Positions 27,959-61,854 of a stretch of DNA of 64,000 nt are shown here, piece by piece. Each line of letters begins with the position of its first letter. Position 1 is the first letter of the stretch. The DNA comes from Minisyncoccia bacterium (GTDB lineage: Bacteria > Patescibacteriota > Minisyncoccia > Phycocordibacterales > UBA9973). The stretch lies in contig JBGSSJ010000012.1 of assembly GCA_041737125.1 (NCBI GenBank), positions 2,637 through 66,636 on the forward strand. Reading direction: 5' to 3'. The notes below the pieces were generated by a model that saw nothing but the letters and a program-made list of their open reading frames with translations, was not told the origin of the DNA and did not search any database. A program made the translations under genes and the position numbers.

Positions 27959-27965
27959 TATATAT

Positions 27966-27991: not shown

Positions 27992-28020
27992 AATACGTCA
28001 AAAATGTATAAAATGCTACT

Positions 28021-46178: not shown

Positions 46179-46797
46179 CCAACAAAATAATTACTAATAA
46201 TATTATAACATTGTTATTCATACTAAATCCAGGGAAAATTGTCTTCTCTTCTGTCGGTTCTTCTATTTTACCATCAACTTCTTCTGTAGTAATTTGTGAA
46301 TCTTTTACCACAAGATTTAAAGACATCGATTTTACTATAGTTGATTCTTCTGTCCCCTTTCCATCATTTAAATATGTCTTCACTCCACTCCATGTCATGT
46401 CTATATTACCTGACACTGCAGTACGTAGGTGTAAGGTCAAAACGAGGCCTTCTTTTGCGAGTCCCTCAGGAGTACCACCTACAAAACGAACCGTCTTTCC
46501 CTTCGAATTATATACTGGTTCTACCGGCCACATAGAGAGAGCTGAGCCTTGTTTACTTACTTCTACTGACAAGGAGTCGGCAATAGAGCCTTGTAGAGAC
46601 ACAGTTCCTTCGATAACATTTAAATTCTTCCCTTGTGGATCTATACGTACCTCTACCACTGTTGTAGTATCCCCATCTTTGCTAGTAGGTACCACTTTAT
46701 AGCTTAGTTGGGCTGCCAGTAAATCCTGTGGTACTACGCACAACAAAAAGCTGATTATAAATGCGTATGCTATATGTGATGAGAATATTTTATACAT
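46138..46797 (-). CDS. Secreted, C-terminally membrane-anchored protein with a cohesin-like domain
   Basis: 219 aa; signal peptide; ~130-aa beta-rich domain (KVVPTS...VVEVRIDPQGKNLNVIEGTVSLQGSIADSLSVEV...SMWPVEPVY); Glu/Thr linker; C-terminal TM VIILLVIILLGGIFYGY; begins 7 nt after the giant gene stop. Confidence 0.45.
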   Translation of the reverse strand: MYKIFSSHIAYAFIISFLLCVVPQDLLAAQLSYKVVPTSKDGDTTTVVEVRIDPQGKNLNVIEGTVSLQGSIADSLSVEVSKQGSALSMWPVEPVYNSKGKTVRFVGGTPEGLAKEGLVLTLHLRTAVSGNIDMTWSGVKTYLNDGKGTEESTIVKSMSLNLVVKDSQITTEEVDGKIEEPTEEKTIFPGFSMNNNVIILLVIILLGGIFYGYKKSTKN

Positions 46798-46803: not shown

Positions 46804-49800
46804 TTATTGTTTTTTAAAGGCGATAGGTTTCTTGCCCCATTGATAAAGAAGGATAGAAAAGTCGACTGAATTTACTTGTTTGTCTAGATTTATATCAGCA
46901 CAAGGGTTATTAAATGGGGATGTTGTTTTCCAGAAAGAAAGCATTATAGAGAAGTCTACTGAATTTACTTTTCCATCATGGTTTAAGTCTGCACCAATAC
47001 ATGCATTCGTTAAAATAGGTGCTACAGATGCCCCACCTCCACCACCTCCCCCTCCACCAGGCGGTGTGACTGAAGTATCGGTACTCGCTGCAAATGACTG
47101 AGATGCAGTTGAGGAATCTGATCCGAACAATACATCCAAATGGAAGTAATAATCACCAGCAATAGGTACAGTCGAGTTCAATGTTGTATCAAAATTTTCT
47201 AATGGCTGAATTAATTTCGCCGCAGTAGAACTAAATATATCATTCCCTCCTCCGCATGTATTGAGTACTGAATCAGTAACACACCATGTGTATTGATATT
47301 CATATGCAGTAGATCCTTCATTCGTAATACGAACTGCAGTAGATATACTTGGAACAATCAAATCAGTAAAGCTCTGAATCAATACTTGCGCAGGAGATCC
47401 AGGAGTACCACTTACTTCACCTGAAGCGACACTCGTGCCAATAATATTTTTCGCATATACTCGGAAATCATACGAGTTATTATTCGCAAGTCCTGTAACT
47501 GTAACAGAAGGAGTAGTACTTACACTATCAGCAAATACAGTCCATGTACCCAATGTCGTAAGTTTATATTCTATAACATAATCAGTTATCGCAGAGCCTC
47601 CATTGGAAAGTGGTGCTGACCAAGACAAGCTTACACTACTATCATCAATGATTGCTGCTAAGTTAGTCGGCGCCCCTGGGACACTCGCAGGAGTTACTCC
47701 AGAACTTGATCCAGAAGACACACCCGTACCGAGAGCATTTGTAGCAGTGACACTAAATGTATAAGTGACTCCATTCGTAAGCCCTGTGAATATTGCAGTC
47801 GTTGTCGCGCTTGTCATTGTAGCGCCGCCTGGACTTGCCGTAATAGTATATGAAGTTATCGGTGAGCCGCCATTTGAAGCTGGAGCAGACCAAGACACAA
47901 TAACGCTCGTATCCGCTGCTTCACCAGCTACGTTCGTAGGAGCTCCTGGAACAGTTGCAGGAGTTACGGAATTACTTGCACTAGATGCAACACTTGTCCC
48001 AACTGCATTAGTTGCAGTGAAAGTGAATGTATATGTCACTCCATTTGTAAGTCCTGTCACAGTGATCGGTGAAGTACCTCCAGTTGCAGTATGTCCACCA
48101 ATGTTTGAAGTAATAGTATACGAAGTGACTGCTGATCCTCCATTGTTCACTGGAGGTGTGAATGTAATAGTTGCTTCGCCATTCCCAGCAACTGCAGTTA
48201 TGCTTGTAGGCGCATCAGGTACAGTCGCAGGCACAATTGAGTTACTTGTTCCTGAAGAAGTACTTGTTCCCATAATATTTGTTGCAGTCACAGTGAATGT
48301 ATAGGTTGTACCATTAGTAAGTCCTGTGACTGTGATTGGTGAACTACCTCCAGTAGCAGTATGACCTCCAACATTTGAAGTGACTGTGTATGAAGTTATC
48401 GCAGATCCACCGTTATTTACTGGAGGTGTGAATGTGATAGTAGCTTCACCATTACCTCGAACTGCAGTTATAGATGTCGGTGCATCCGGAACAGTCGCCG
48501 GAGTTACAGAATTAGTTGTCGCTGAAGCAATTCCTGTACCCACACTATTCGTCGCAGTCACAGTAAATGTATATGTCACTCCATTTGTAAGTCCTGTGAC
48601 TGTGATTGGTGAACTACCTCCAGTTGCAGTATGACCTAAGTTTGAAGTAACTGTATAGATTGTTATGGCAGAGCCGCCATTTGAAGATGGAGCAGTGAAT
48701 GTAATTGTTGCTTGTCCATTACCTGCTGTTGCAGTACCGATAGTAGGAGCTCCTGGTACACTGACCGGAGTTACTGAATTACTAGAACTTGATGCAACAC
48801 TAGTCCCCACATCATTTGTGGCAGTCACTGTGAATGTATATGTCACTCCATTCGTAAGTCCGACAACTACCAAAGGAGATGACCCTCCTGTTGCTGTATG
48901 ACCAAGGTTTGAAGTTACTGTGTAGCTTGTGATTGCTGATCCGCCATTATTTACTGGGGGTGTAAATGTGATAACTGCTTCGCCATTGCCCGCTGTTGCA
49001 GTCCCTATAATAGGAGCATCAGGAACTGTAGCTGGAGTAATAGTATTACTTGGATCTGAAGCGACACTAGTACCTACCGCATTTGTCGCAGTCACTGTAA
49101 ATGTATACGAGACACTATTTGTAAGCCCCGTGACTGTAATTGGAGAGCCGTTACTTGTTGCAGTAAATCCTCCAGGACTTGAAGTCACTGTATAACTTGT
49201 GATTGTAGATCCGCCATTATTCACAGGAGGTGTAAATGTAATTGTCGCTTCACCATTACCCCTGACTGCAATTATAGAAGTAGGTGCGTCAGGAACAGTC
49301 GCCGGAGTTACTGCATTACTTGCAGTTGATGCAACACTCGTGCCTACGGCATTGGTTGCAGTCACAGTAAATGTATATGCGACTCCGTTAGTAAGTCCTG
49401 TGACTACAAGTGGTGAACTACCACCTGTAGTAAAGTGTCCTCCAATACTTGAGGTCACTGTGTATGAAGTTATTGCAGATCCGCCATTTGATATAGGTGC
49501 GTCAAATGTGATAGTTGCTTGTCCATTACTAGAAACTGCAACTATATTTGTCGGTGCATCTGGAACAGTCGCCGGAGTTACAGCGTTGGTCGTGCCTGAA
49601 GCAACACTTGTACCATTTGCATTTGTGGCAGTCACAGTGAACGTGTACGTTGTACCGTTTGTAAGTCCAGTGATTGTTATCGGAGATGTCCCACCACTTG
49701 TAGTAAATCCTCCCGGACTTGAAGTGACTGTGTAGCTTGTAATTACAGAACCACCATTATTTACTGGAGGTGTGAATGTGATAGTTGCTTGACCGTTACC

Positions 49801-52800
49801 CGCTGTTGCAGTGCCTATGATAGGTGCGTCCGGAATCGTTGAAGGAACCACACTATTACTTGTAGCAGATGAGGCACCTGTTCCTGCACTATTCGTAGCA
49901 GTCACTGTAAATGTATACGTTACTCCGTTTGTAAGACCTGTGACTGTGATTGGTGAAGTACCTCCGGTTGCAGTGTGACCAAGATTTGAAGTAACTGTGT
50001 ATGAAGTTACCACAGACCCTCCATTATTTAATGGAGGTGTGAATGTAATAACTGCTTCGCCATTGCCTCCAGTTGCTGTACCTATTGTAGGTGCATCTGG
50101 AACTGTTGCAGGAGTTACAGCATTGGTTGTCGCAGAGGCAACGCTTGTACCATTTGCATTTGTTGCGGTCACAGTAAATGTGTATGAAGTACCGTTTGTA
50201 AGTCCGGTTACCGTGATTGGTGACGTACCTCCTGTAGCAGTGTGTCCAAGATTTGAAGTAACTGTGTAGCTTGTGATTGCAGAGCCACCATTATTTACTG
50301 GAGGTGTGAATGTAATAGTTGCTTGACCATTACCTGGTGTGGCAGTACCAATGATCGGGGCATCTGGAATAGTTTGATAACTAAAGTAAGGATACGATGA
50401 TGCTTCATCGATGGACCAAATAAGTGAAGTGAAATCCCATCCGACAAAAGTAGCTTCTTCTTTCATTTCTGTACTAGTCTTCCCCGTTATCCCAGCTGGA
50501 TCAACACCATTTCCGACACCGTCCCCAGTTGCATATCCTGATGTTGTTGTGTCCCAATAATTTGAAACATATGTCCCTCCAAGTGGATTCCCAGTTACTC
50601 CACCAGTGTACTGAAGTGAAGCTGCACCTGCTGCGCCCGTTCCACCTGTTGAACCTCCAGATCCGCCTACTCCAGCACTTCCGCCTGTACCACCTGTCGC
50701 ACCGTTTGTTTTCGTTCCAGATGGTGCTCCTGTTGCATATGTATTAGTAATAATTGTCGTATTATGACTTCCTAATAGTCCACCCACATACGCAGACCCT
50801 CCTGCACCACCGGCACCACCGGCACCACCATTTCCATTTACTCCAAGTGCTCCTCCTCCTTGAGCGCCTCCTGCGCCGCCCACTCCACCAACACCACCCA
50901 CTCCTGGAGTACCCCCAATTGCAGTAATAGACCCACGCTGGTAGGCATTTGTAATCGCTCCCGTATTTTGCCCGACTAATCCTCCGACAAACACAGCATC
51001 ACCCGCACCTCCTGCACCACCGGCTCCACCGATTGTTCCATTTCCACCATTTCCAGAAACACCTGATCCACCAGCACCTCCTTCACCGCCAGTACCTCCG
51101 ACTGCTCCCGCTGCACCCACACCACCTGTTACTAAAATATTTCCTGATGCATAACTTGTATTAAAATTCCCAGTAGTGATATTCGCTCCCACAAGTCCAC
51201 CCACATAACTTGCGCCAGAAGCACCACCAGCACCTCCTCCTATTGATGCTCCTCCTGCACCACCTGCAAGTGTTCCTCCATTTCCTCCTCTTCCTCCTGC
51301 GCCAGATGCCCCAGCACTTCCACCGTTTCCACCAACAGTAGTGACGTCGCCGGCTGACCAAGAAAATTGAATAATGCCGGCTGTAAAATTATATCCAACG
51401 AGTCCTCCGGCATACAAAGCTCCACCTGCGCCTCCTGCAGCCGTAGTACCACTTCCGCCACCTGCGCCTCCTGCGCCAGAGACACCACCGGTTCCCCCAT
51501 TTCCACTCAATCCTGCAGCCCCACCCACGCCACCAGTGGCTCCATTTACGCTAACATCTCCTAATGCATAGGTAGTATACAATGTTCCAATATTGTATCC
51601 TGCAAATCCTCCACCGTACGTGATACCTCCTGCAGCACCAACAGTTCTTGCACCTGAAGCTCCACCGGTACCACCAGTACCAGAGACATCTCCTGCTCCA
51701 CCTGTCCCACCATTTCCTCCCGCACCACCGACACCTCCTGTGCCCCCTACAAGAGTGAGCGATCCTGTAGAGTAAGAATCCTTAATCGTTCGTGCGGTAT
51801 TATTGAATCCAGTAAATCCTCCACCATAAGCAAGACCTGCGGCACCAGCTGCCCCACCGTTTCCAGCTACTCCACCGACACCTCCGTTGCCACTTACACC
51901 AACTGACCCAGAGGCACCATTGCCTCCAGTTCCACCAGCTCCTCCGGTGCCAGTAATACCGACAACATTACTTGTTGTATATGAAGAGAGAAAAATATTT
52001 CCATCGTTATACCCGACAAATCCACCAGCATACATAACACCTGATGCGCCACCTGCTCCACCTACCCAACCTATGCCACCAGCACTTGATGGGCTTGATA
52101 CTCCTCCATTTCCACCAATTCCACCATTGCCTCCATTCCCGCTTGTTGATGAGACCGTAGTACCAAGCGAATAACTAGTAAGAATTGTATTTGTCGTATT
52201 GACATTAAATCCTGCTAGTCCTCCAGAAGCTGAGACTCCACCTCCACCTGCGGGACCTCCGGCCCCACCAGTTCCTCCTATGTGTGAAGTTCCAAGCGAA
52301 CCATTTCCTCCAGTACCACCATTTGATCCATGTGCTCCATTACCCCCGATCGCAGTCACAGAACCAGTTGCATATGAATTTAAAATAATTCCTGTTGCCG
52401 CATTATTTCCGACAAGTCCACCAGCATACCCCAAACCACCTGCAGCACCACTCCCCCCTGCGCCTCCTGTCGCAGCTGTACCACCAGAGACTGTACTACT
52501 TGCCCCACCCGAAGCTCCATTACTTGATACTCCGGCATTCCCTCCGATAGAAGAGACAGCACCTGTTGCATAAGAACTTCCTTCTATAATTCCTGTATTA
52601 TTTCCGATCAATCCACCAGCATAGCTTGCGCCTCCTGTACCTGCGGTACCACCGGCTCCTCCTACTCCTCCGAGCGCACCAGATCCTGCAATTCCTCCAG
52701 CAACACTTGTAGCTGCATTACCACCTGTACCTCCTGTCGATGTAACATTACGCGTAGCATAACTTGTAGTAATAGTAACAGTACTTCCTAGCTGAGCAAT

Positions 52801-55800
52801 TAATCCTCCTGCGTAAGAAACTCCTCCTGCACCACCTGCACCAGCTGCGACACTCGCTCCTCCTGCACCACCAGCACCACCAGCACCAGGAATCCCAGAG
52901 GCTCTTCCATTTCCACCAAGTCCGCCAAACGACTCCACTGTATTGCCAGTCGAATATGCATGGAAATAATTACTTCCTCCTCCTGCCGCCATATTACTAT
53001 ACCCCACAAGTCCTCCAGCATTTGATTCACCTCCTATACCTCCTGACCCACCTGCACCAGAGGCACCACCTGCTGCACTTGTTGCGCCGTTTGCTCCATT
53101 TCCTCCGATATTTCCTGTACTTCCTGTGCCCCCAGTACTACTAACATTTCCTGTTGCATATGAATTAATAATGTCACTAAGTCCAGCACCTATTCTATTA
53201 TTTCCGATCAATCCACCAGCATAACTTGCACCTCCCACTGCACCAACCACAGCGCCACCACCTGTGCCACCTGCTACTGTTGATCGTGATGCGCCACCGT
53301 TCCCTGATATTCCTGAAATTCCAGCTGTTCCTCCAGTAGAGGAAACATTTCCTGTTGCATATGTATCTAAATAATTACTTGCACCGGTCGTGAAGTTACT
53401 GAAACCTACGAGCCCTCCAGCATTTGCTTCACCTCCGACACCAGCTAATCCTGCCAATGCACCAGGCGCACCTGCATGAGTACTTGTTCCTAGAGAACCA
53501 TCTCCACCATTGCCACCAAGACCTCCATTTCCCCCGAGCCCACCAACAACAGTGATGCTTCCTGTTGCATACGAATCACTAATTCGTACTATTTGTGTTG
53601 TTCCAGTCATACGACCAACAAGTCCTCCTCCGTATGCTAGCCCACCAGCTCCACCTGCGCCACCTGCTCCACCGAGTGCAGAGACTCCACTTGAAATAGT
53701 ACTACCAGAAGTACCTCCAGTCCCCCCATTACCACCAGTTCCGCCAGTACCAGCAGTTGCAGAAAAAGAAATTGACGAATAAGAATTATCTCGAATAATT
53801 CCGAGATTGTCTCCCACCAATCCTCCTACTGCTCGTACACCACCTGTACCACCAATACCTCCAAGAGCTCCAACTCCGCCATTAAATGCCCCTACACCAC
53901 TTCCTCCATTACCACCATTTCCGCCTGTTCCACCACTTTGTTCAAAACCTGAAATAGAAATCAGTGTTGAATATGAGTCTGATACTGCACCTGTTGATGT
54001 GCTTGATCCTAAAAGTCCTCCAATAAATGATCCTTGTGAAGCTCCACCTGCGCCGCCTGCACCACCTGCGCCACCTGCTCCACCTGTTGCCAATCCTGAA
54101 CCTCCATCCCCTCCATTACCTCCATTACCAGGAGTTCCGCCTGTCACCACAATATTACCTGCGCCGGATCCACTATCGACGGTTGCATGCGAAGAAATGA
54201 CATCAGACGTTGTGGATCCAACAAGACCCCCTGCATGAATTATACTTGATTGGTTTCCAGCACCACCAGCACTTCCTGCTGTTCCAGAGTTGATACTTGC
54301 ACTTATTCCATGTGCACCATTGCCTCCATTTCCTCCAGTAATATTGAGAGTTGTTTTTGAGTATGAGTTTGCTTGAATAATTCCAGTGCTATATCCTACT
54401 AATCCTCCAACATAGATACCTCCACCAAAACTTCCTACACCACCTGTTCCATTTAATCCATCAAGCGCTGTGCCCGTACCAATACCACCAATACCACCTA
54501 GAGCACCATGCCCCGCAGAACCACCCACCACTACGATAGTTCCTGTTTCTGCATATGATGAGGTAATTGTTCCTAAACTACTTTGCCCTACAAGTCCTCC
54601 TACGTGCAATGCCGTAGAGGCGGTTGTCGCACCTGAACCACCAGCACCACCATTTCCTGCAACACCTCCGATATGATTCGTACCAAGAGATCCATCACCG
54701 CCATTTCCGCCCTGTCCTCCGTTCCCGCCATTACCTCCTGTTCCTGTCATACTGACTGTCGCATAGGAACTATTAATAATTCCATTTGCTGTGTTGTTTC
54801 TTCCTACTAATCCTCCCAGTGAAAGACTTCCCCCTACGCCTCCTGCTCCACCGATACCACCAGCTGCAGCAGTTCCATTTGTTATAGCTCCAGAAGCACC
54901 AGCAGCGCCTCCTATTCCACCATTTCCTCCAGCTCCTGAAACCGCAACGAGAGATCCTGTTGTATGATAACTTGTTTCAATTCCAATAGAAGAATCCCCT
55001 ACTAATCCTCCTGTAAAGTTTGCACCACCTGCACCACCTATAGCTCCTGCACCACCTGCACCACCTATAGCAGCTCCTCCTCCAGATCCTCCTGAGCCTC
55101 CATTACCACCCGTTCCCCCTATACCAGATGTACCAGAAACAGTATTACTAGAGTATGCATTAATTATCTCACCTATATTTGAAAATCCGACAAGTCCTCC
55201 TGCATACGAGGCGCCTCCAACACCACCAACTCCTCCTATAGCTCCTGCTCCACCGACAGAATTATTTCCACCTACACCGCCTGATCCTGCATTTCCTCCT
55301 GCACCTGCATTTCCTGCACTTGCCATCACTGTACCTGTGGCATATGAATTATCAATATATGCATTTGTTGTAGTAAATCCGATAAGTCCTCCACTATACG
55401 CAGAGCCGCCAGTACCACCGGCTCCACCTACTGCTCCTGCTCCACCAAATATATTATTTATAGTTCCGTCACCACCATTTCCACCACTTGCACCATCCCC
55501 CCCCGTAGCTCCATTTACAGTAACTGAACCTGTTGCATATGAATTTCTTACTACGTATCCAGCACCGGCATTATATCCGACAAGTCCTCCACCATATATT
55601 GCATTACCAGATCCTCCGGCTCCTCCTGCTCCTCCAATAGAACCATTAGCACCTGATGTTCCGGTCGTTCCATTAGCTGCGACTCCACCATTTGCAACGA
55701 CATCATTTGTAGAATGTACAGTATCAATAAGAACATTACTAAGGGAGACATACCCTACAGCACCTCCTGCATGAACTGCACCTGTTACCCACCCAGCACC

Positions 55801-58800
55801 ACCTGCCCCACTTGTACCATTTCTTCCACTTCCTCCCCCACCAGTTCCTCCTGTAGCGCCTGTTCCACCAGATCCTCCAACACCAGCAAAAGTCACAGTA
55901 ATAGTTCCACCACTTGCTTGTGATGAAGAAATATTACCATTACCTTGGCCTGCTATCCCACCTATATATACTGCACCACCTACGTTTCCGGAGCCACCGT
56001 TTCCACCAACACCTCCAGCATGTCCACCAGTTCCAAGTGACCCATTTCCACCAGTACCACCATCTCCTCCCATACCTGCACTTGCTCCATTTCCAGTAAG
56101 ACTTCCTATAACACTCAGATTTGAAATAACTCCAGAAAAGTTAACACCAAAAAATGCAGTATTATCACCAGTAATACCTCCGATATATGTCGCACCTCCT
56201 ATTCCACCTGGACCACCGGTTCCACCACTTGCTGCAGTACCTCCGGCAATATTTCCAGATGCACCAGCCGTGCCACCTACCCCACCGTTTCCACCAACTC
56301 CTCCACTTACTGTAATAGTTGTAATTGTATATGTAAGATCTTTAATCACTCCAGCATTAGACCCCGTTATTCCTCCGCCGTACGCAGCTCCTCCAGTGCC
56401 TCCTGTAACACCCACAGCACCAGTTCCTCCTATTGCTCCACTTCCACCAGCACCACCAGGTGCTCCACCTCCGCCTATTCCACCTGCACCCCCAGTTGAA
56501 GTAATTGTCCCTATAGTATGTGGAGTAGAAAGTGTCGTACTCACCAATCCATTAAACCCAATAATACCTCCAGCATAACTAGCCCCACCGACACCACCGA
56601 AACCACCATTGCCCACATATGCAACACCTGCAAGACCTGCGACTCCCGGACCACTTGATCCTGGAGTACCGCTTGCTCCAGAATTTCCGCCGGCTCCTCC
56701 TATAGCTTCAATATTTCCAGAAGCATATGATCCAGAAGCAACAGTTGCAATATTGTATCCGACAACACCTCCACTTGAAGCAAGACCTCCAGCTCCACCA
56801 GAATTACCTAATGTTGCTGCACCTCCCGCAACAGCATTACTTGAATTACCACCATTTGCGCCTGATCCTCCTAAACCTCCAACTCCTCCGATGGCAGTTG
56901 CATTCCCTGTTGCATATGAACCACCAAGAACAATTCCATTTGTTGAATTATATCCCAGCAATCCACCTGCATATCCTGCACCCGCAGCGCCCCCGATTCC
57001 AAGACTTCCACCACCAGAAGCTCCGATAGTTCCACTTCCACCTGTTCCACCTGCGCTACCGATACCACCTGTTCCACCAGTTGAGATAGTGTTGCCCGTA
57101 GCATATGAATTATTGATAACACCGTTACTAAACCCAACAAGTCCTCCAGCAGAAGAATAACCTGCAGTAGCACTCGTCGCTCCATTTCCTCCTATTGCAC
57201 GGACTCCACCTGCACCACCTGCGCCGGCATTCCCAGAATTTCCACCAATAGAAAACACATCAACTTCTGAGTATGAATAAATAACACTTCCAGAAGAATT
57301 TTGTCCTACAATACCACCTGCAAAAGATAGCCCTCCTGCAGCGCCAGCTATTCCCGCTCCGCCAGCACCACCTATAGCATTTGTTCCACCCGCTCCGCCA
57401 CTGGACCCATCTGCACCATTACCACCAGAGCCTGCAGTGGAATAAACTGACCCTATCTCTGAATATGAATTAGATATTGTTGAAGTATTAAATCCTGCGA
57501 TTCCCCCTGAGTATGCAGTACCACCCACTCCACCTGCGCCACCAACAGAACCAGCAGCACCGACATGACTTGCACCACCTAGAGACCCGTTCCCTGCTGC
57601 GCCTCCAATTGCGCCACTTTTACCAGAAGATGCAGTCGCAGTAACTACACTTGTCGTATAATAATTTGTAATAAAATTCGCATTATGTCCTACAACACCA
57701 CCAGCATATGCAAGTGCACCTGCACCTCCTGCACCACCTGCACCACCTGATGCAGCGATTCCTGAATTAACTGTTGCAGTTGTTGCACCTCCTGCACCTC
57801 CTGCACCACCATCACCTGGAGTTCCACTCGTTGATGTTACTGCACCAGATGTAAGAATTAATGTTTCTGAAGTAATAACTCCAGTACTTTGACCCGCAAC
57901 TCCTCCTGCAAAAGAAGCTCCTCCAACTCCTCCTGCCGCGCCTGCGCCTCCTGCGCCGCCGATGGCATTCGTTCCGCCTGCAGCACCGGCACCGCCTGCA
58001 CCACCATTTCCTCCTGCACCACCAGTAACAATGACATCACCTGTTGAATAACTAGATGCTATCGGTCCCAAAATATATTGTCCTACCACTCCTCCTCCAT
58101 ATCCGGCACCGCCTATACCACCGACAGCTCCTGCACCACCTACTCCACCTGTCACACCTACAGCACCTACTCCTCCATTTCCTCCGTTTCCACCTATACC
58201 TCCAGCACCACCAGTTGCATTTACTGTTCCTGTTCCGTAAGAAAATAGTACTTGTCCGTTAAGATTGTAGCCAATAACACCACCAACATATGCAGCACCT
58301 CCAACTGCTCCAGCACTTCCTGCAATACCAGCAAGACTAGTGCCACCATTTCCACCAAGTGCTCCATTTCCACCTGAGCCACCTGTACCAGTTACTGTGC
58401 TCGTTGAATAATCATTTGTTAATGTGGACCCTGAGTTATATCCAATAACACCTCCCACATATGCAGCACCTCCCACAGTTGCAATAGCACCTGCTCCACT
58501 AAGAGCTCCAGCACCACCAGCTCCACCGGCACCGGCATTCCCACCAGCACCTGCAGTTCCAGTTATAGTCCCTGTTGTGTGATAACTATGACTTGTTACA
58601 TTTGTATTTACACCAACTACACCTCCAATATAAACATCACCTGCAGCACCCGCATTGGCACCTGCAATTCCAGGCAAACCAATAAGACCTGAAACTCCTG
58701 CACCACCACTCCCACCTCCGCCACCTAGTCCTATTACTTGGTTTTCAGAATATGAATATTGAATTATCCCTGTATTACGTCCTGCGAGACCACCAACCTG

Positions 58801-61800
58801 TGCGAAAGTTACAAATGCTGATCCTCCTACACCAGAGGCACCGCCTGCACCTGAAGCTCCGCTAGCCCCCTTTACTCCACCTGAGCCCCCTGTACCACCA
58901 GCACCACCTGAGCCAGCAACTCCGGTAATAACTCCTGTTGTTGCATATGAAGAAAGAATAACTCCAGCATTAAGTCCAGCAAGACCACCAACATACGCTC
59001 CACCTCCTGCACCTCCTGCACCAGCAGCACCTCCTGCACCTCCTGCATGTGCTGCACCAAGAGAAGCACTTCCTCCTGCGCCGCCTGATTGTCCATTTTT
59101 ACCATTTGATCCAGTTCCGGTCACATTGCTTGTTGAATAGTTTGAGCCTATATCTCCGATAATAATTCCAGCTGAAGCATTCTGTCCTACAAGTCCTCCA
59201 GCATGCGCAAGTGACCCTGCACCACCTGCGCCGCCTATTCCACCTATAGCAGCAGTTCCTGTTGTAGCAGTCGCACTTGCACCACCTATACCACCGGTTG
59301 AACTAGTTCCACTTTCTCCACCGAATGCTTCTACATCTCCTGTTGCATATGAAGCGCCTTCAATAATTCCTGAATTATTCCCCACTAAACCACCAACATA
59401 AGTGACTCCACCGAGAGCACCCGCTGCTCCTGCTCCACCTGCTCCACCAATCGCTGCGCCTCCGCCGGCACCCCCAACACCTGCTGTTCCCGCATTTCCC
59501 CCTGTTCCTCCAGTTCCAGTAACAGAACCTGTCGTATATGAAGCGTCAATTACTCCTGTATTAATCCAACCAGCAAGTCCGCCAACATAACTAATACCTC
59601 CCACGCCTGGAGCACCAGCTGCACCACCTGCTCCACCGATACCTGTTCCAGAGTTTGTTCCACCATTACCAGCTGCACCTGAGTCACCACCTGTACCACC
59701 TACACCGATAACTGTCGCCGAACTACTTGATGTTGTTATATTTCCTTGAGCAGAGAAACCGACAAGTCCACCTACATATGATATTGCTCCCGCACCACCT
59801 GCAAGAGTTCCACCTCCCGCACCTGCGACTGTTGCGCCACTTGTTGTATTTCCACCAGCACCACCCGAACCTGATGCACCACCTGCACCACCAGTCCCTG
59901 TAATAAAACCTGATACACTTGCACTGGTGATAGTTCCTGCATTATATCCAGCAAGCCCACCGACGTAGACGATAGACCCCGCTCCGCCAATTGTTCCTGT
60001 ACCTCCCGCTGTAGGTGTTACTCCAGATGTTCCTGTGGCACCATTTGAACCTGTCGCGCCAGATACTCCGACAGCCGTTATAGAAGCATTCGTAAGTACT
60101 ACATTTTCAATTAGGTTTGTTGTATATCCAAAAAGTCCGACATATGCGAGTGTTGTTGTATTAATAAAAAGATTGCTTATCGCATAATTGTCACCATTAA
60201 AATTCCCTGTAAATGGAGTTGTATTTGTTCCGATTGGAATAAATCCGACCCCTGCATTCCATCCTGAAGTCACACTTGCATTAATTGCATTATTTAATTT
60301 GTATGAACTAGCAAGATTAGTTCTCGCTCCTTGTAATCCGTACACATCAAAAACCATAAATGGATCAGTGCTGATTCCCATCCCTGTATATCGTCGAAAT
60401 GTTCCTGCACTTACTGAAAAATTTCCTGTTACAGAAAATGTATCGTTGAGTGGATCAGGTGCAGTAAAGGTAGCTGCGGAAGTTTGAATGTAATCACCAG
60501 ACAACCCACCAGAATTATTTATTATAAGATTTGCATTCTGAGTAATAGTTCCTGTATATCCAGATATAGTAAGAGAGCCTATAGTAAAAGCTTGATCTAT
60601 AATTGCACCATTTGAACCTGTATCAAAAATAACGTTCGTTTCAAAATCAGGTATAGAAGCTCCGCTTGCACCACCAGATGTGGCAGACCAACTAGATGTA
60701 CTACTCCAATTTGCACCAGCTGCTCCTACCCAATATCTTGTAGTGATAGGGTCAACAACTTGATCAATGGTAAGGTCTCCAATAATTTTCAAATCAAATG
60801 TTTCTAAAGGAGTAGAGAGCCCTGATAAAATTATCCTATATTTACCATCTTCAGCAATGACAGGGAAAGCAGCGATAAATTCTCCATCAACAGTATAGAC
60901 TTCAACTGTCACAGCACTACCATCATGAGTAGGCTTTGCATACAAAGTTATATCATTTCCATTATCGAGAAACGTATCAAACGTAACTCGTACAAATTGT
61001 CCGTCTAGAATATCTGCAAAAATTTGATCTCTATATTTTATTGCATCGAAAATATCTTCAAGAATATTTTTATCAGAATCCAGACGAATACCATCTGAAA
61101 TAAAAATAATTTCAAATGTCTGAGTAGAGAGGTGCGGTACTACCCAACTCACGTGATCTATATATTCATCTTCGTCATCGTCGTACGAGACGAATTCCAT
61201 ATTTTCATCTCCATTATTGGTCCATTTTATTTTTATTTGATCTTCTTGTCCTACTTTAAATATTTCTGAAATTTCTATACGGACCGGAACGTCAACCATA
61301 GGAGCTACAGCATCTTGCTCGGGAGTAGACGAAACTACTACTACTTTACCGTTATCTATTACTTGCTCCTCGATAGTTGGTAGGCGACTCGTTTCTTCGC
61401 CAAGTGATGGAGGTATTTCTTCGCTAATTGCTTCCAATGCACTTGAGCCTCCACTATTATCTATATCTTCATTCTTCTCTTCTTCGCTCTCTATAATAAT
61501 TTCTGTTACTACTTCTGGTTCTTCAATTATCTCAGTACTATCTTCATTTACTATTTCTATTACTTCCTCTTCAGCTACTTCAGGCTCGGAAATTGTTTCT
61601 ATAATATCTTCTGTTGTTACTTCTTGTTCTACAGTTACTTCTTCCGTATCTTCTATTATTTCTGTAACAGGTAGCACAGCTTCGATGGTGGGATCATTTG
61701 TAGTAACCTGAATCATTTCTACAGTTTCTTCATTGGTTGTGGATTCAATTATTACTTCATCTTGCGCATCAACAGTAAAATAAAAACTACACAATAAAAA

Positions 61801-61854
61801 AATTGCGAAGAGAAATGATAAAATTTTATTATATTTAAAAGCACAAAGCGACAT
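46804..61854 (-). CDS. Giant secreted surface protein (5,016 aa): signal peptide, acidic E/T/I-rich linker, ~450-aa N-terminal domain, ~3,200 aa of GLUG-like Gly-rich repeats, 11 FN3-like repeats, a small C-terminal domain, a Gly9 linker and a C-terminal dockerin
   Basis: One uninterrupted 15,051-nt ORF. N-terminus MSLCAFKYNKILSFLFAIFLLCSFYFTVDA. Recurring (Y)VGGLVG-N-G-I--SYATG units separated by G/A/S/T-rich spacers. FN3-like units PDAPTIGTATAGNGQATITFTPP...YTFTVTATN x11. Tail ...DLNHDGKVNSVDFSIML...DINLDKQVNSVDFSILL. Confidence 0.85.
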   Translation of the reverse strand: MSLCAFKYNKILSFLFAIFLLCSFYFTVDAQDEVIIESTTNEETVEMIQVTTNDPTIEAVLPVTEIIEDTEEVTVEQEVTTEDIIETISEPEVAEEEVIEIVNEDSTEIIEEPEVVTEIIIESEEEKNEDIDNSGGSSALEAISEEIPPSLGEETSRLPTIEEQVIDNGKVVVVSSTPEQDAVAPMVDVPVRIEISEIFKVGQEDQIKIKWTNNGDENMEFVSYDDDEDEYIDHVSWVVPHLSTQTFEIIFISDGIRLDSDKNILEDIFDAIKYRDQIFADILDGQFVRVTFDTFLDNGNDITLYAKPTHDGSAVTVEVYTVDGEFIAAFPVIAEDGKYRIILSGLSTPLETFDLKIIGDLTIDQVVDPITTRYWVGAAGANWSSTSSWSATSGGASGASIPDFETNVIFDTGSNGAIIDQAFTIGSLTISGYTGTITQNANLIINNSGGLSGDYIQTSAATFTAPDPLNDTFSVTGNFSVSAGTFRRYTGMGISTDPFMVFDVYGLQGARTNLASSYKLNNAINASVTSGWNAGVGFIPIGTNTTPFTGNFNGDNYAISNLFINTTTLAYVGLFGYTTNLIENVVLTNASITAVGVSGATGSNGATGTSGVTPTAGGTGTIGGAGSIVYVGGLAGYNAGTITSASVSGFITGTGGAGGASGSGGAGGNTTSGATVAGAGGGTLAGGAGAISYVGGLVGFSAQGNITTSSSSATVIGVGGTGGDSGAAGNGGTNSGTGIGGAGGAAGAPGVGGISYVGGLAGWINTGVIDASYTTGSVTGTGGTGGNAGTAGVGGAGGGAAIGGAGGAGAAGALGGVTYVGGLVGNNSGIIEGASYATGDVEAFGGESGTSSTGGIGGASATATTGTAAIGGIGGAGGAGSLAHAGGLVGQNASAGIIIGDIGSNYSTSNVTGTGSNGKNGQSGGAGGSASLGAAHAGGAGGAAGAGGAGGGAYVGGLAGLNAGVILSSYATTGVITGVAGSGGAGGTGGSGGVKGASGASGAGGASGVGGSAFVTFAQVGGLAGRNTGIIQYSYSENQVIGLGGGGGSGGAGVSGLIGLPGIAGANAGAAGDVYIGGVVGVNTNVTSHSYHTTGTITGTAGAGGNAGAGGAGGAGALSGAGAIATVGGAAYVGGVIGYNSGSTLTNDYSTSTVTGTGGSGGNGALGGNGGTSLAGIAGSAGAVGGAAYVGGVIGYNLNGQVLFSYGTGTVNATGGAGGIGGNGGNGGVGAVGVTGGVGGAGAVGGIGGAGYGGGVVGQYILGPIASSYSTGDVIVTGGAGGNGGAGGAGAAGGTNAIGGAGGAGAAGGVGGASFAGGVAGQSTGVITSETLILTSGAVTSTSGTPGDGGAGGAGGATTATVNSGIAASGGAGGAGGAGALAYAGGVVGHNANFITNYYTTSVVTATASSGKSGAIGGAAGNGSLGGASHVGAAGSVGGAGGVGGTAYSGGIAGFNTSTISNSYSEIGSVYSTAGSGGNGADGSSGGAGGTNAIGGAGGAGIAGAAGGLSFAGGIVGQNSSGSVIYSYSEVDVFSIGGNSGNAGAGGAGGVRAIGGNGATSATAGYSSAGGLVGFSNGVINNSYATGNTISTGGTGGIGSAGGTGGSGTIGASGGGSLGIGGAAGAGYAGGLLGYNSTNGIVLGGSYATGNATAIGGVGGLGGSGANGGNSSNAVAGGAATLGNSGGAGGLASSGGVVGYNIATVASGSYASGNIEAIGGAGGNSGASGTPGSSGPGVAGLAGVAYVGNGGFGGVGGASYAGGIIGFNGLVSTTLSTPHTIGTITSTGGAGGIGGGGAPGGAGGSGAIGGTGAVGVTGGTGGAAYGGGITGSNAGVIKDLTYTITTITVSGGVGGNGGVGGTAGASGNIAGGTAASGGTGGPGGIGGATYIGGITGDNTAFFGVNFSGVISNLSVIGSLTGNGASAGMGGDGGTGGNGSLGTGGHAGGVGGNGGSGNVGGAVYIGGIAGQGNGNISSSQASGGTITVTFAGVGGSGGTGATGGTGGGGSGRNGTSGAGGAGWVTGAVHAGGAVGYVSLSNVLIDTVHSTNDVVANGGVAANGTTGTSGANGSIGGAGGAGGSGNAIYGGGLVGYNAGAGYVVRNSYATGSVTVNGATGGDGASGGNGGDGTINNIFGGAGAVGGAGGTGGSAYSGGLIGFTTTNAYIDNSYATGTVMASAGNAGAGGNAGSGGVGGNNSVGGAGAIGGVGGVGGASYAGGLVGFSNIGEIINAYSSNTVSGTSGIGGTGGNGGSGGSGGGAAIGGAGGAGAIGGAGGANFTGGLVGDSSIGIETSYHTTGSLVAVSGAGGNGGIGGAAGASGAITNGTAAAGGIGGAGGVGGSLSLGGLVGRNNTANGIINSSYATVSMTGTGGNGGNGGQGGNGGDGSLGTNHIGGVAGNGGAGGSGATTASTALHVGGLVGQSSLGTITSSYAETGTIVVVGGSAGHGALGGIGGIGTGTALDGLNGTGGVGSFGGGIYVGGLVGYSTGIIQANSYSKTTLNITGGNGGNGAHGISASINSGTAGSAGGAGNQSSIIHAGGLVGSTTSDVISSHATVDSGSGAGNIVVTGGTPGNGGNGGDGGSGLATGGAGGAGGAGGAGGASQGSFIGGLLGSSTSTGAVSDSYSTLISISGFEQSGGTGGNGGNGGSGVGAFNGGVGALGGIGGTGGVRAVGGLVGDNLGIIRDNSYSSISFSATAGTGGTGGNGGTGGTSGSTISSGVSALGGAGGAGGAGGLAYGGGLVGRMTGTTQIVRISDSYATGSITVVGGLGGNGGLGGNGGDGSLGTSTHAGAPGALAGLAGVGGEANAGGLVGFSNFTTGASNYLDTYATGNVSSTGGTAGISGISGNGGASRSTVAGGTGGGAVVGAVGGASYAGGLIGNNRIGAGLSDIINSYATGNVSSTGGTGSTGNIGGNGANGATSAAGGASGAGGSGGIGGESNAGGLVGYSNMAAGGGSNYFHAYSTGNTVESFGGLGGNGRASGIPGAGGAGGAGGASVAAGAGGAGGVSYAGGLIAQLGSTVTITTSYATRNVTSTGGTGGNAATSVAGGIAGSGALGGVGGAGGTAGTGGASYAGGLIGNNTGIIEGSSYATGAVSSIGGNAGVSSNGASGGASSTVSGGTAATGGAGGSGAAGGLGYAGGLVGNNAATGIILNSYATGSVTAIGGNGAHGSNGGTGGNGSLGTSHIGGTGGAGGPAGGGGVSASGGLAGFNVNTTNTILTSYSLGTTVSSTSGNGGNGGIGGNGGVSSPSSAGGIGWVGGAGGASGVMYAGGFVGYNDGNIFLSSYTTSNVVGITGTGGAGGTGGNGASGSVGVSGNGGVGGVAGNGGAAGAAGLAYGGGFTGFNNTARTIKDSYSTGSLTLVGGTGGVGGAGGNGGTGGAGDVSGTGGTGGASGARTVGAAGGITYGGGFAGYNIGTLYTTYALGDVSVNGATGGVGGAAGLSGNGGTGGVSGAGGAGGGSGTTAAGGAGGALYAGGLVGYNFTAGIIQFSWSAGDVTTVGGNGGSAGASGAGGRGGNGGTLAGGAGGASIGGGAGGASGASYVGGLVGANITTGNFNTSYASGNILVTGGVGAAGAVGGTGGEGGAGGSGVSGNGGNGTIGGAGGAGGAGDAVFVGGLVGQNTGAITNAYQRGSITAIGGTPGVGGVGGVGGAGGAQGGGALGVNGNGGAGGAGGAGGSAYVGGLLGSHNTTIITNTYATGAPSGTKTNGATGGTGGSAGVGGSGGSTGGTGAAGAASLQYTGGVTGNPLGGTYVSNYWDTTTSGYATGDGVGNGVDPAGITGKTSTEMKEEATFVGWDFTSLIWSIDEASSYPYFSYQTIPDAPIIGTATPGNGQATITFTPPVNNGGSAITSYTVTSNLGHTATGGTSPITVTGLTNGTSYTFTVTATNANGTSVASATTNAVTPATVPDAPTIGTATGGNGEAVITFTPPLNNGGSVVTSYTVTSNLGHTATGGTSPITVTGLTNGVTYTFTVTATNSAGTGASSATSNSVVPSTIPDAPIIGTATAGNGQATITFTPPVNNGGSVITSYTVTSSPGGFTTSGGTSPITITGLTNGTTYTFTVTATNANGTSVASGTTNAVTPATVPDAPTNIVAVSSNGQATITFDAPISNGGSAITSYTVTSSIGGHFTTGGSSPLVVTGLTNGVAYTFTVTATNAVGTSVASTASNAVTPATVPDAPTSIIAVRGNGEATITFTPPVNNGGSTITSYTVTSSPGGFTATSNGSPITVTGLTNSVSYTFTVTATNAVGTSVASDPSNTITPATVPDAPIIGTATAGNGEAVITFTPPVNNGGSAITSYTVTSNLGHTATGGSSPLVVVGLTNGVTYTFTVTATNDVGTSVASSSSNSVTPVSVPGAPTIGTATAGNGQATITFTAPSSNGGSAITIYTVTSNLGHTATGGSSPITVTGLTNGVTYTFTVTATNSVGTGIASATTNSVTPATVPDAPTSITAVRGNGEATITFTPPVNNGGSAITSYTVTSNVGGHTATGGSSPITVTGLTNGTTYTFTVTATNIMGTSTSSGTSNSIVPATVPDAPTSITAVAGNGEATITFTPPVNNGGSAVTSYTITSNIGGHTATGGTSPITVTGLTNGVTYTFTFTATNAVGTSVASSASNSVTPATVPGAPTNVAGEAADTSVIVSWSAPASNGGSPITSYTITASPGGATMTSATTTAIFTGLTNGVTYTFSVTATNALGTGVSSGSSSGVTPASVPGAPTNLAAIIDDSSVSLSWSAPLSNGGSAITDYVIEYKLTTLGTWTVFADSVSTTPSVTVTGLANNNSYDFRVYAKNIIGTSVASGEVSGTPGSPAQVLIQSFTDLIVPSISTAVRITNEGSTAYEYQYTWCVTDSVLNTCGGGNDIFSSTAAKLIQPLENFDTTLNSTVPIAGDYYFHLDVLFGSDSSTASQSFAASTDTSVTPPGGGGGGGGGASVAPILTNACIGADLNHDGKVNSVDFSIMLSFWKTTSPFNNPCADINLDKQVNSVDFSILLYQWGKKPIAFKKQ
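46807..47031 (-). other. C-terminal dockerin module (duplicated Ca2+-binding segment) of the giant protein
   Basis: Two F-hand-like repeats, D-L-N-H-D-G-K-V-N-S-V-D-F-S-I-M-L and D-I-N-L-D-K-Q-V-N-S-V-D-F-S-I-L-L, ~30 aa apart, preceded by a GGGGGGGGG linker. Confidence 0.75.
47395..50350 (-). repeat. Eleven tandem ~267-bp coding repeats (FN3-like domains), several near-identical at nucleotide level
   Basis: Visible as periodic, near-identical spurious plus-strand ORFs (e.g. ...DPPLFTGGVNVIVASPLP...VAVTVNVY...) and as the protein repeat PDAPxIGTATAGNG(E/Q)ATITFTPPVNNGGSAITSYTVTSN...GLTNGVTYTFTVTATN. Confidence 0.85.
50450..60130 (-). repeat. ~9.7 kb of degenerate tandem coding repeats (period ~60-70 codons) encoding GLUG-like motifs plus GGxGGxGG spacers
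   Basis: Minus strand is dominated by GGN/GCN/ACN/AGY codons, so the plus strand reads as Pro-rich spurious ORFs. Motif VGGLVG...SYATG recurs dozens of times. Confidence 0.8.

What the first reader, a model, noticed from the sequence alone, without database searches (positions are those of the whole stretch)
50450..60130. ~3,200-aa array of GLUG-like motifs embedded in poly-Gly/Ala/Ser/Thr spacers
The central two thirds of the giant protein is a degenerate repeat. Each unit is (Y)(V/A)GG(L/I/V)(V/A)G-N-G-I--(S/N)Y(A/S)TG-V... followed by 20-40 residues of GGxGGxGG low complexity. The hydrophobic core resembles the GLUG motif of large streptococcal surface proteases and adhesins. The spacers resemble PGRS-like Gly repeats but are not Gly-X-Y collagen triplets. 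Such an array would form a very long, probably beta-helical or fibrous stalk. Its degenerate rather than exact nature suggests an old repeat expansion, not an assembly artefact.
Basis: partly seen in the sequence, partly recalled or inferred. Interest (0 to 1): 0.6.

Follow-up and report, generated by a model that had tools for sequence, protein, structure and literature searches.

The report
Giant GLUG / poly-glycine surface fibre
The repeat is real: 49 copies of a 65-residue unit (a GLUG beta-strand core plus a glycine-triplet segment) form the shaft of a 5,016-residue secreted protein of an ultra-small (Patescibacteria/CPR) bacterium, a conserved but apparently undescribed variant of a known adhesin-type repeat.

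Summary
Observation confirmed. Window 46804-61854 (-) is one intact 5,016-aa ORF. Residues 628-3775 hold 49 units spaced 65.0±4.0 aa. Each unit is a ~28-aa core (xxYxGGLVGxN..I..SYxTG.V) plus a 37±4-aa spacer with 48% Gly. Isolated cores hit only Pfam GLUG (23 of 50). Long pieces give no hit, probably because of HMMER's bias filter. The spacers are ordered (GGX)3-4 – linker – (XGG)5 triplet runs. They contain no RTX motif and almost no Pro.

Two full-length orthologues are colinear unit for unit at 62-67% identity. One of them reads UGA as Gly. Spacer glycines are 91% conserved in register, so the array is old and constrained, not an artefact. At least 27 species genomes, nearly all labelled CPR, carry arrays with the same 63-69-aa period, followed by FN3 arrays.

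Canonical GLUG arrays have a ~28-aa period. AlphaFold (pLDDT 80) models cores as beta strands and spacers as non-alpha, non-beta segments. The best PDB match is a polyproline-II-bundle antifreeze protein, but a second model left the spacers at low confidence.

The C-terminal dockerin sits beside two conserved membrane-anchored proteins with a cohesin-like domain.

Best reading: the rigid shaft of a surface-anchored attachment fibre. It is a new variant of a known kind.

The parts
46804..61854 (-). Giant ORF, 5,016 aa, ATG to TAA-class stop, no in-frame stop under table 11
61765..61854 (-). Sec-type signal peptide (aa 1-30: basic n-region, hydrophobic ILSFLFAIFLLCSFYF, VDA|Q cleavage-like site)
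   Evidence: read directly from the translation
61375..61764 (-). Acidic low-complexity region (aa 31-160; 36 Glu in 130 residues, I/T/V-rich)
60733..61374 (-). N-terminal domain(s) without a Pfam or NCBIfam family (aa 161-374). Conserved in the orthologues and in P0001 and P0010. Candidate distal tip.
59974..60732 (-). Beta-helix 'head' (aa 375-627) with the PIG..F.G.F.G....ISNL...YVGLFGY signature and the first GLUG-like core at aa 569
   Evidence: Homologues carry PF07581 and PF05342. AF2 pLDDT is ~90. The best PDB match is 3n6z (putative IgA1 protease), followed by IgA1 proteases.
50530..59973 (-). The array: 49 units (aa 628-3775) of a 28-aa GLUG core plus a 37±4-aa (GGX)3-4 – linker – (XGG)5 spacer; period 65.0±4.0 aa
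50371..50529 (-). Tail cap of the GLUG domain (aa 3776-3828: ...YWDTTTSG...GKTSTEMK...WDF..W...YPYF)
   Evidence: translation; conserved in both orthologues
47407..50370 (-). Eleven FN3 domains at 89-90-aa spacing (aa 3829-4816)
   Evidence: Pfam fn3 E 4.3e-100 with 11 stretches; TRF 270-nt period; spacing measured
47047..47406 (-). Domain of unknown family (aa 4817-4936)
   Evidence: no Pfam or NCBIfam hit
46990..47046 (-). Linker with a poly-Gly run (aa 4937-4955)
   Evidence: translation
46807..46989 (-). C-terminal type I dockerin with two Ca-loop-like segments (DLNHDGKVNSVD, DINLDKQVNSVD)
   Evidence: PF00404 at 31.2 bits against a cut-off of 22.9. Nearly identical tails occur in L060 and L083.
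46138..46797 (-). 219-aa protein starting 6 nt downstream of the giant gene: signal peptide, ~135-aa cohesin-like domain, C-terminal TM helix
44682..46178 (-). 498-aa protein: signal peptide, cohesin-like domain (Pfam Cohesin, sub-threshold), Ig-like middle part, TM helix, charged tail

Best explanation
The array is the rigid shaft of a cell-surface fibre of a Patescibacteria (CPR) bacterium.

The protein is exported by Sec. I infer that its C-terminal dockerin plugs into the cohesin-like domains of two membrane-anchored proteins encoded immediately downstream. Eleven FN3 domains and the GLUG array would then project the N-terminal domains away from the cell for contact with a host cell or substrate.

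In the shaft, the 28-aa GLUG cores would stack as rungs of a right-handed beta-solenoid that continues the IgA1-protease-like head. Each 37-aa spacer would leave the solenoid and return as a hairpin of two glycine-triplet segments, (GGX)3-4 and (XGG)5. These would most likely adopt polyglycine/polyproline-II conformation. Hairpins of successive units would pack into a continuous PPII layer alongside the solenoid.

Shown: the repeat anatomy, GLUG identity of the cores, head fold, triplet order, strict conservation of unit number and spacer register, the CPR-wide family, the dockerin, and the conserved three-gene order.

Inferred: the PPII hairpin packing, the cohesin-dockerin anchoring, the orientation, and the adhesive role.
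For: Repeat and GLUG identity:
- establish the repeat and its GLUG cores.
- The head plus cores match 3n6z (probability 1.0) and IgA1 proteases.

Spacer order and model:
- Spacers show period-3 Gly autocorrelation.
- Anchored from the unit end they read X-G-G five times, with X mostly A, I or V. In a helix with three residues per turn this puts X on one face.
- AF2 of 5.5 units gives pLDDT 80.3 and pTM 0.75. Strands occur only in the cores.
- pLDDT is 82-94 in the two Gly-triplet segments and dips once per unit at the mid-spacer linker.
- The best PDB structural match is the nine-PPII-helix springtail antifreeze protein 7jjv (E 2.3e-4, probability 0.93). Snow-flea AFP 2pne also appears, then right-handed beta-helices.

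Constraint across orthologues:
- The CAZFTF01 orthologue is colinear over 3,711 aa at 62.5% identity with 30 gaps of 8 aa or less.
- Spacer glycines are 91% conserved in register, against 34-40% when shifted by 1-2 residues. There are only 14 small gaps in 1,775 spacer positions.
- 45 of 48 units match their positional counterpart best.
- The JBBTSS01 orthologue aligns 1-5016 at 66.9% identity, with 13 gaps in the array.

Family:
- About 35 loci from at least 27 genomes, nearly all labelled CPR, have ORFs with 10-33 cores at median spacing 63-69 aa and 43-50% Gly spacers.
- All six C-terminal flanks tested carry 6-19 FN3 domains.

Anchor:
- The dockerin scores above its cut-off.
- The two downstream proteins each have a signal peptide, a shared domain and a TM helix.
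- The isolated domain hits Pfam Cohesin at E 0.0016 over profile positions 2-123 of 139.
- The same gene order with near-identical dockerin tails occurs in L060 and L083.

Literature:
- Giant surface proteins with fibronectin domains are proposed as host-attachment fibres in the CPR predator Vampirococcus (PMC8080830).
- A PPII bundle interleaved with beta-solenoid layers is solved in the phage S16 gp38 adhesin tip (bioRxiv 10.1101/2023.11.25.568672).
Against: - The second AF2 model (head plus the first four units, with an alignment of mostly spacer-less homologues) gave pLDDT below 50 for every spacer. The ordered-spacer prediction therefore depends on the alignment.
- Model coordinates could not be inspected. 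PPII geometry is inferred from DSSP 'other' plus Foldseek hits with low TM-scores (0.12 and 0.31).
- AlphaFold is known to draw confident PGII sandwiches for PE_PGRS proteins that other programs call disordered (PMC11939664), and none of those has been solved.
- The cohesin assignment is below Pfam's cut-off (19.0 against 24.1 bits). A profile search of PDB sequences found no cohesin.
- There is no expression, localisation or binding data.
Confidence: 0.55

Rival explanations
1. The spacers are intrinsically disordered, flexible glycine linkers. The GLUG cores either stack with floppy loops protruding, or the whole region acts as an entropic spring or bristle.
For: Low-complexity composition with 48% Gly. 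The second AF2 model gave pLDDT 25-48 for all four spacers. No domain family matches the spacers.
Against: - In-register conservation of 91% of spacer glycines, and almost no indels across orthologues at 62-67% identity.
- Constant 63-69-aa period across CPR lineages.
- Ordered (GGX)n – linker – (XGG)5 anatomy.
- The first AF2 model is confident in exactly the two triplet segments.
Confidence: 0.2
2. The spacers are 'glycinised' GLUG rungs. The 65-aa unit descends from two ancestral ~28-aa rungs, and the array is a uniform beta-solenoid of ~100 rungs in which every second rung is Gly-rich.
For: HMMER aligns a complete canonical GLUG unit of ordinary GLUG proteins opposite the spacer. The mid-spacer motif x-H/A-[AIV]-G-G-x-G-G resembles the core start x-[YH]-[AV]-G-G-L-V-G. 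The spacer of 37 aa is close to one rung plus a turn.
Against: Period-3 rather than period-2 residue pattern. DSSP assigns no strands in the spacers of the confident model. PPII-bundle proteins outrank beta-helices in the fold search. The evolutionary part (origin from a rung) is compatible with the best explanation; only the structural part competes with it.
Confidence: 0.15
3. The spacers form Ca2+-binding beta-roll turns of the RTX type, as once proposed for PE_PGRS.
For: Gly-rich repeats with some GGNGGDG strings. PE_PGRS was once proposed to form such rolls (PMC5054227, listed).
Against: Zero matches to GGxGxDxUx or to the relaxed D/N form in 3,120 residues. Asp is 0.7% of spacer residues.
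Confidence: 0.02
4. The array is an assembly artefact, a chimera or a decaying pseudogene.
For: Highly repetitive, with GC 0.50 against 0.35-0.40 in the flanks. The source is a metagenome.
Against: - 5,016 codons are open.
- The longest exact repeat is 28 nt.
- Two independently assembled orthologues have the same length and order.
- The GC shift follows from Gly and Ala codons.
Confidence: 0.01
5. The flat Gly/Ala PPII surface is an ice- or crystal-binding face, and the protein is an antifreeze or ice-adhesion fibre.
For: The best structural matches are springtail and snow-flea antifreeze proteins.
Against: The matches reflect the PPII fold, not function. No habitat data were examined, and nothing in the window or the family loci links the protein to cold.
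Confidence: 0.03

Closest known systems
GLUG-motif beta-helix domain (Pfam PF07581), as in the N-terminal domain of streptococcal M26 IgA1 proteases (PDB 6xja, 6xjb, 7jgj, 7uvk) and BACOVA_03286 (3n6z)
   Same: The core sequence matches the GLUG HMM. The head and tail signatures are present. The head plus cores resemble 3n6z and IgA1 proteases structurally. Giant GLUG arrays with up to 69 cores exist in thousands of proteins.
   Different: Canonical arrays have a 26-34-aa period with no Gly spacer; none of the best 150 representatives had a median spacing of 50-80 aa. Here every core is followed by a 37-aa (GGX)n segment. There is no protease domain.
Glycine-rich polyproline-II helix bundle domains (snow-flea and springtail antifreeze proteins 2pne and 7jjv; phage S16 gp38 adhesin tip 6F45; Obg N-domain; ALK/LTK glycine-rich domain)
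   Same: GGX/GXX triplet runs of 9-15 residues joined by short turns. These are the best Foldseek hits for the model. In gp38 the PPII helices are interleaved with beta-solenoid layers.
   Different: The domains described have 8-14 PPII helices. This array would have roughly 100, in strict alternation with GLUG rungs. There is no detectable sequence homology, and the PPII conformation here is only predicted.
Mycobacterial PE_PGRS proteins
   Same: GGA-GGX repeat composition. AlphaFold predicts ordered PGII sandwiches for them (PMC11939664).
   Different: There is no PE domain and no regular alternation with a beta motif in PE_PGRS. This protein has a Sec signal peptide, a CPR host lineage, and a positionally conserved array.
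Cohesin-dockerin anchoring of cellulosomal and non-cellulosomal surface proteins
   Same: A C-terminal type I dockerin above Pfam's cut-off. Adjacent genes encode secreted, membrane-anchored proteins whose shared domain best matches Pfam Cohesin.
   Different: The cohesin match is sub-threshold. There are no glycoside hydrolases or scaffoldin. Binding is untested.
Giant surface proteins of CPR episymbionts (for example Vampirococcus lugosii, 1,392-4,163 aa, with fibronectin and other adhesion domains)
   Same: Giant, secreted, FN3-containing, in an ultra-small bacterium; proposed to form surface fibres for host attachment (PMC8080830).
   Different: That paper does not describe a GLUG / poly-Gly array. 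No searchable paper holds 'GLUG' together with any CPR name.

Membership tests
GLUG motif (Pfam PF07581) | Sequence match to the PF07581 HMM at or above the gathering score (20.5 bits) | tested here: met
   Isolated cores: 8 of 8 hit only Glug, 5 of them at 20.9-28.4 bits. 23 of 50 cores hit at E<=0.01 and no other family is hit. Long pieces give no hit, probably because of the bias filter.
GLUG motif (Pfam PF07581) | Part of a right-handed beta-helix domain with the head seen in IgA1-protease-type proteins | tested here: met
   The AF2 head has pLDDT ~90. Foldseek finds 3n6z at probability 1.0 (E 0.023, 281 columns), then 7jgj, 7uvk, 6xjb and 6xja. Head homologues carry PF07581 and PF05342.
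GLUG motif (Pfam PF07581) | Canonical tandem period of about 27-30 residues | tested here: not met
   The period here is 65.0±4.0 aa. The 150 best representatives have median spacings of 26-45 aa, with a median of 28.
Glycine-rich PPII-helix bundle | Runs with Gly at every third position (GXX/GGX), 9 or more residues long, joined by short turns | tested here: met
   Autocorrelation is 0.33, 0.27 and 0.29 at lags 3, 6 and 9. There are 88 runs of 9-42 residues. The (XGG)5 register is seen.
Glycine-rich PPII-helix bundle | Backbone in PPII conformation, packed in hydrogen-bonded layers | tested here: inconclusive
   AF2 model 1 is confident, has no alpha or beta in the spacers, and best matches 7jjv (E 2.3e-4, probability 0.93, TM 0.12/0.31). 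Model 2 has spacers at pLDDT below 50.
PE_PGRS | N-terminal PE domain | tested here: not met
   No PE family in aa 1-600 at E<=1. A Sec-type signal peptide is present instead.
RTX / beta-roll | Tandem GGxGxDxUx nonapeptides | tested here: not met
   0 matches, including the D/N-relaxed form.
Collagen-like triple helix | Gly-X-Y triplets with Pro-rich X/Y | tested here: not met
   Two Gly per triplet; Pro is 0.6-0.7%.
Dockerin type I (PF00404) | HMM match above the cut-off; duplicated Ca-binding loop segment | tested here: met
   31.2 bits against 22.9. The two D-x-N-x-D-G/K-x-V-N-x-x-D segments are visible.
Cohesin (PF00963), for the two downstream proteins | HMM match above the cut-off (24.1 bits) | tested here: inconclusive
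   The isolated domain of the 498-aa protein scores 19.0 bits, E 0.0016, over profile positions 2-123 of 139, and is the only hit. The whole protein scores E 0.08. The PDB profile search found no cohesin.
Fibronectin type III (PF00041) | HMM match above the cut-off | tested here: met
   E 4.3e-100 with 11 stretches.

The most novel reading that the evidence does not exclude
The array would be a previously unrecognised fibrous protein architecture. It would be a beta-solenoid carrying a continuous two-segment-per-rung polyglycine-II 'keel' of roughly 100 PPII helices. That would be the largest natural PPII assembly by an order of magnitude. It appears specific to CPR bacteria and is held at a fixed length by selection. 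It would serve as the dockerin-anchored host-contact fibre of these episymbionts.
Probability: 0.3. Interest if true: 0.75.

Novelty: new variant of a known kind. Interest (0 to 1): 0.6.

Why it matters
The gene is 15 kb and would take up a noticeable share of a small CPR genome. For scale, two CPR chromosomes that carry the family are 0.83 and 0.98 Mb.

Unit number and spacer register have stayed fixed between relatives that differ even in genetic code. That implies strong selection on the physical length and shape of the product. This makes it a good candidate for the long-sought host-contact apparatus of episymbiotic bacteria.

Structurally, it offers a natural test of whether GGX repeats really form ordered polyglycine-II assemblies. 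This question is still open for PE_PGRS proteins.

Practically, default HMMER filters hide the GLUG cores. P0001, a fragment of the orthologous gene, carries no Pfam annotation in the database, so family members may go unannotated.

Tried and rejected
- Pfam and NCBIfam on long pieces of the array gave no hits. I attribute this to the bias filter and worked around it with isolated cores.
- TRF did not detect the ~195-nt period.
- The word-index homologue search with a 5-unit piece returned 3 junk Gly-rich hits.
- An alignment of overlapping 5-unit windows aligned out of register and was discarded.
- The exhaustive HMMER search with a 2-unit profile returned only canonical GLUG arrays among its best 150. 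The same filter probably removes spacer-bearing proteins, so their rarity cannot be inferred from that search.
- Variable-gap DNA patterns were not usable for collection scans because of the plain-base start rule. A fixed 51-nt pattern was designed and validated locally instead.
- The viral contig scan gave 24 single hits, none with GLUG cores.
- BFVD fold search found nothing significant.
- PDB sequence searches with the head, the unit profile and the cohesin-like profile gave only marginal hits.
- No flanking-gene synteny was found with the L001 contig.
- RTX, collagen and PE_PGRS membership were rejected.
- The alignment of spacers alone failed in the tool.

Full report
**The gene.** The minus strand of the window carries one uninterrupted ORF, 46804..61854, of 5,016 codons. 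GC rises from 0.35-0.40 in the flanks to about 0.50 inside it, with strong negative GC skew on the plus strand. That is what a coding strand full of GGN and GCN codons gives. The neighbours are housekeeping genes: YchF, sigma-70, LeuRS, MurJ, LepA, Mur ligases, a PBP and MraW. TGA ends 4 of 42 ORFs, so the window uses the standard code. The best named relatives of its LepA are 'Patescibacteria group bacterium' at 80-81% identity.

**The observation.** The coordinates given (50450-60130) correspond to residues ~575-3801.
- I located 49 cores between aa 628 and 3747, plus a head core at aa 569. Start-to-start spacing is 65.0±4.0 residues.
- A strict core motif occurs 40 times, against 0.39 expected from shuffles.
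- The consensus of a 24-row, two-unit alignment is xxYxGGLVGxNxxGxIxxSYxTGxVxxxGG, followed by GGx runs.
- Pfam found nothing in 1,600-1,710-residue pieces. Isolated 28-31-residue cores hit only PF07581 Glug: 8 of 8 in a first test with 5 above the gathering score, and 23 of 50 at E<=0.01 with no competing family. I attribute the negative result on long pieces to HMMER's composition-bias filter.

**Not an artefact.** DNA copies are 60-76% identical. TRF does not see the ~195-nt period. The longest exact direct repeat in 9.7 kb is 28 nt.

Two independently assembled orthologues settle the question.
- Contig CAZFTF010000010.1 (labelled Candidatus Peribacteria; loci L001 and L086) aligns colinearly with window residues 282-3992 at 62.5% identity, with 30 gaps of at most 8 residues. 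Its reading frame holds 109 TGA and no TAA or TAG in 3,734 codons. 97 of the 109 TGA lie opposite Gly in the window protein. That genome therefore reads UGA as glycine, as reported for Absconditabacteria and Gracilibacteria (PMC8080830).
- Contig JBBTSS010000011.1 (Patescibacteria group; L100 plus L083) aligns over residues 1-5016 at 66.9% identity, with 13 small gaps in the whole array.
- Orthologous units are 61.7% identical. Paralogous units are 42% identical. 45 of 48 units find their best match at the same ordinal position.

The expansion therefore predates the divergence of these lineages, and unit number has not changed since.

**Anatomy of the spacer.**
- Spacers are 37±4 residues long, with 48% Gly, 17% Ala, 0.7% Pro and 0.7% Asp.
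- Gly autocorrelation is 0.33, 0.27 and 0.29 at lags 3, 6 and 9, and negative at lags 1-2.
- Read from the unit's end, the last 15 residues are X-G-G five times, with X mostly A, I or V. Upstream lies a (GGX)3 block, and about six variable residues sit between the two.
- There are no RTX nonapeptides. These are not collagen triplets, because each triplet has two Gly and almost no Pro.
- Against the CAZFTF01 orthologue, spacer glycines are 91% conserved in register. This drops to 34-40% if the alignment is shifted by one or two residues. Only 14 small gaps fall in 1,775 spacer positions.

A free, disordered low-complexity linker would not be expected to keep register like this.

**Structure predictions.**

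*Model 1.* This covered residues 3076-3438 (5.5 units), with an alignment of nine non-overlapping paralogous windows.
- It reached pLDDT 80.3 and pTM 0.75.
- DSSP strands are confined to the cores.
- The two Gly-triplet segments have pLDDT 82-94. Confidence dips once per unit at the mid-spacer linker.
- Foldseek against the PDB ranked the nine-PPII-helix springtail antifreeze protein 7jjv first (E 2.3e-4, probability 0.93). Snow-flea AFP 2pne was also listed, followed by right-handed beta-helices and IgA1 protease at E 0.1-1. TM-scores are low, as expected if no solved protein combines both elements.

*Model 2.* This covered the head plus four units, with an alignment of head homologues that mostly lack spacers.
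- It gave a confident head (about 90) and cores at 73-89, but spacers below 50.
- Its best PDB matches were 3n6z (putative IgA1 protease of Bacteroides ovatus, probability 1.0) and streptococcal or Gemella IgA1 proteases.

The GLUG beta-helix assignment is therefore solid. The ordered-PPII reading of the spacers is supported but depends on the alignment, and I could not inspect coordinates.

**How unusual is it?**
- An exhaustive HMMER search with the two-unit profile found 14,626 proteins at E<=1e-3 and 302 at E<=1e-30, up to 6,742 residues long.
- In all of the best 150, my core HMM finds a median spacing of 26-45 residues, typically 28. These are canonical GLUG arrays without Gly spacers.
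- HMMER aligns a whole canonical unit opposite the spacer. This suggests that the 65-residue unit may descend from two rungs.
- That search probably filtered out spacer-bearing proteins. I therefore designed a fixed DNA pattern for GGxGGxGG..YxGGhxG. It matches 7 sites here, 2 in L001, and only 2 sites in the 150 canonical proteins.
- Loci with several hits are almost all labelled Saccharibacteria, Falkowbacteria, Kaiserbacteria, Peribacteria, Patescibacteria group or unclassified.
- About 35 loci from at least 27 assemblies contain ORFs, often open across the full 8 kb, with 10-33 cores at median spacing 63-69 residues and 43-50% Gly in the spacers. The pattern does not fix the period, so this is an independent regularity.
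- All six C-terminal flanks examined carry 6-19 FN3 domains.
- Viral contigs have no such arrays.

**Ends of the protein and neighbours.**
- The N-terminus is a Sec-type signal peptide. It is followed by an acidic region and about 215 residues without a known family.
- After the array come a conserved tail cap, eleven FN3 domains at 89-90-residue spacing, an unassigned domain, a poly-Gly run and a type I dockerin above Pfam's cut-off.
- Six nucleotides downstream starts a 219-residue protein, followed by a 498-residue protein. Both have a signal peptide, a shared ~135-residue domain (BLASTP E 3e-9) and a C-terminal transmembrane helix.
- The isolated domain of the larger protein hits Pfam Cohesin as its only match. 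It scores E 0.0016 and 19.0 bits against a cut-off of 24.1, covering profile positions 2-123 of 139.
- The same order (giant gene ending in a near-identical dockerin, then the 219-residue homologue, then the 498-residue homologue) is present in L060 and L083.
- A PDB sequence-profile search did not recover cohesins, so this assignment is suggestive only.

**Interpretation.** I propose a surface fibre with four parts.
- A C-terminal dockerin is held by membrane-anchored cohesin-like partners.
- Eleven FN3 domains form a jointed stalk.
- The GLUG array forms a rigid rod.
- The N-terminal domains form the distal, probably adhesive, tip.

With the standard 4.8 Å rise per beta-solenoid rung, 50 rungs give about 24 nm. 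The figure is about 48 nm if each spacer adds a rung. Eleven FN3 domains add roughly 40 nm. These lengths are inferences from known geometry, not measurements.

The spacer's two-segment anatomy is what a hairpin excursion from one solenoid corner requires. Period-3 placement of A, I or V puts these side chains on one face of a helix with three residues per turn.

A solved precedent for PPII helices interleaved with beta-solenoid layers exists in the phage S16 gp38 receptor-binding tip. The natural PPII bundles described in that survey have 8-14 helices (bioRxiv 10.1101/2023.11.25.568672). PE_PGRS proteins share the GGA-GGX composition and are predicted, not shown, to form PGII sandwiches (PMC11939664).

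**Literature and novelty.** No paper in the searchable library holds 'GLUG' together with any CPR name. 'GLUG motif' occurs in two unrelated papers. I therefore rate this a new variant of a known kind. The GLUG repeat and giant CPR surface proteins are known. The strict GLUG / glycine-triplet alternation, its CPR-wide conservation and the dockerin / cohesin-like cassette appear undescribed.

Noticed in passing
L001 10001-21203 (contig CAZFTF010000010.1, also L086): The orthologous giant gene has 109 in-frame TGA and no TAA or TAG in 3,734 codons. 97 TGA lie opposite Gly in the window protein, so that genome reads UGA as Gly (code 25), while the window uses the standard code. Public gene calls there shatter the gene into dozens of 30-140-aa fragments.
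   Followed up: yes
window 44682-46797 (-): Two secreted, membrane-anchored proteins with a shared cohesin-like domain lie directly downstream of the dockerin-tailed giant gene. The same three-gene order occurs in L060 and L083.
   Followed up: partly
L100 + L083 (JBBTSS010000011.1): This full-length orthologue (5,056 aa) has a single in-frame TGA, opposite Gly3515 of the window protein. It could be a sequencing error, a split gene, or sparse use of UGA as Gly.
   Followed up: partly
window 36745-39576 (-): The leucyl-tRNA synthetase (943 aa) carries a NUDIX domain (aa 396-501, 34.2 bits against a cut-off of 21.1) inserted after the editing domain.
   Followed up: no
L090 and L095 (CAYZPC010000003.1): A contig labelled 'uncultured archaeon' carries the same 65-aa-period array followed by FN3 domains, but its C-terminus has no dockerin-like loops. 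It could be mislabelled, or a transfer to a DPANN-type archaeon.
   Followed up: no
window 50401-60129 (protein-level): Pfam's GLUG model finds nothing in the intact Gly-rich pieces but does hit isolated cores. HMMER's default bias filter probably hides the GLUG cores, so standard annotation may leave this protein family unannotated.
   Followed up: yes
window 47407-50370 (-): The eleven FN3 domains form their own tandem DNA repeat (270-nt period, 9 copies at 70% identity by TRF). They are much more uniform than the GLUG units.
   Followed up: partly
window 27305-28456 (-): A cluster of three tRNA genes: Phe-GAA, Arg-CCU and Gly-CCC.
   Followed up: no
window 61375-61764 (-): The mature N-terminus is an acidic low-complexity stretch (36 Glu in 130 residues, with I, T and V). 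It is less conserved than the rest of the protein in the orthologues. Its function is unknown.
   Followed up: no
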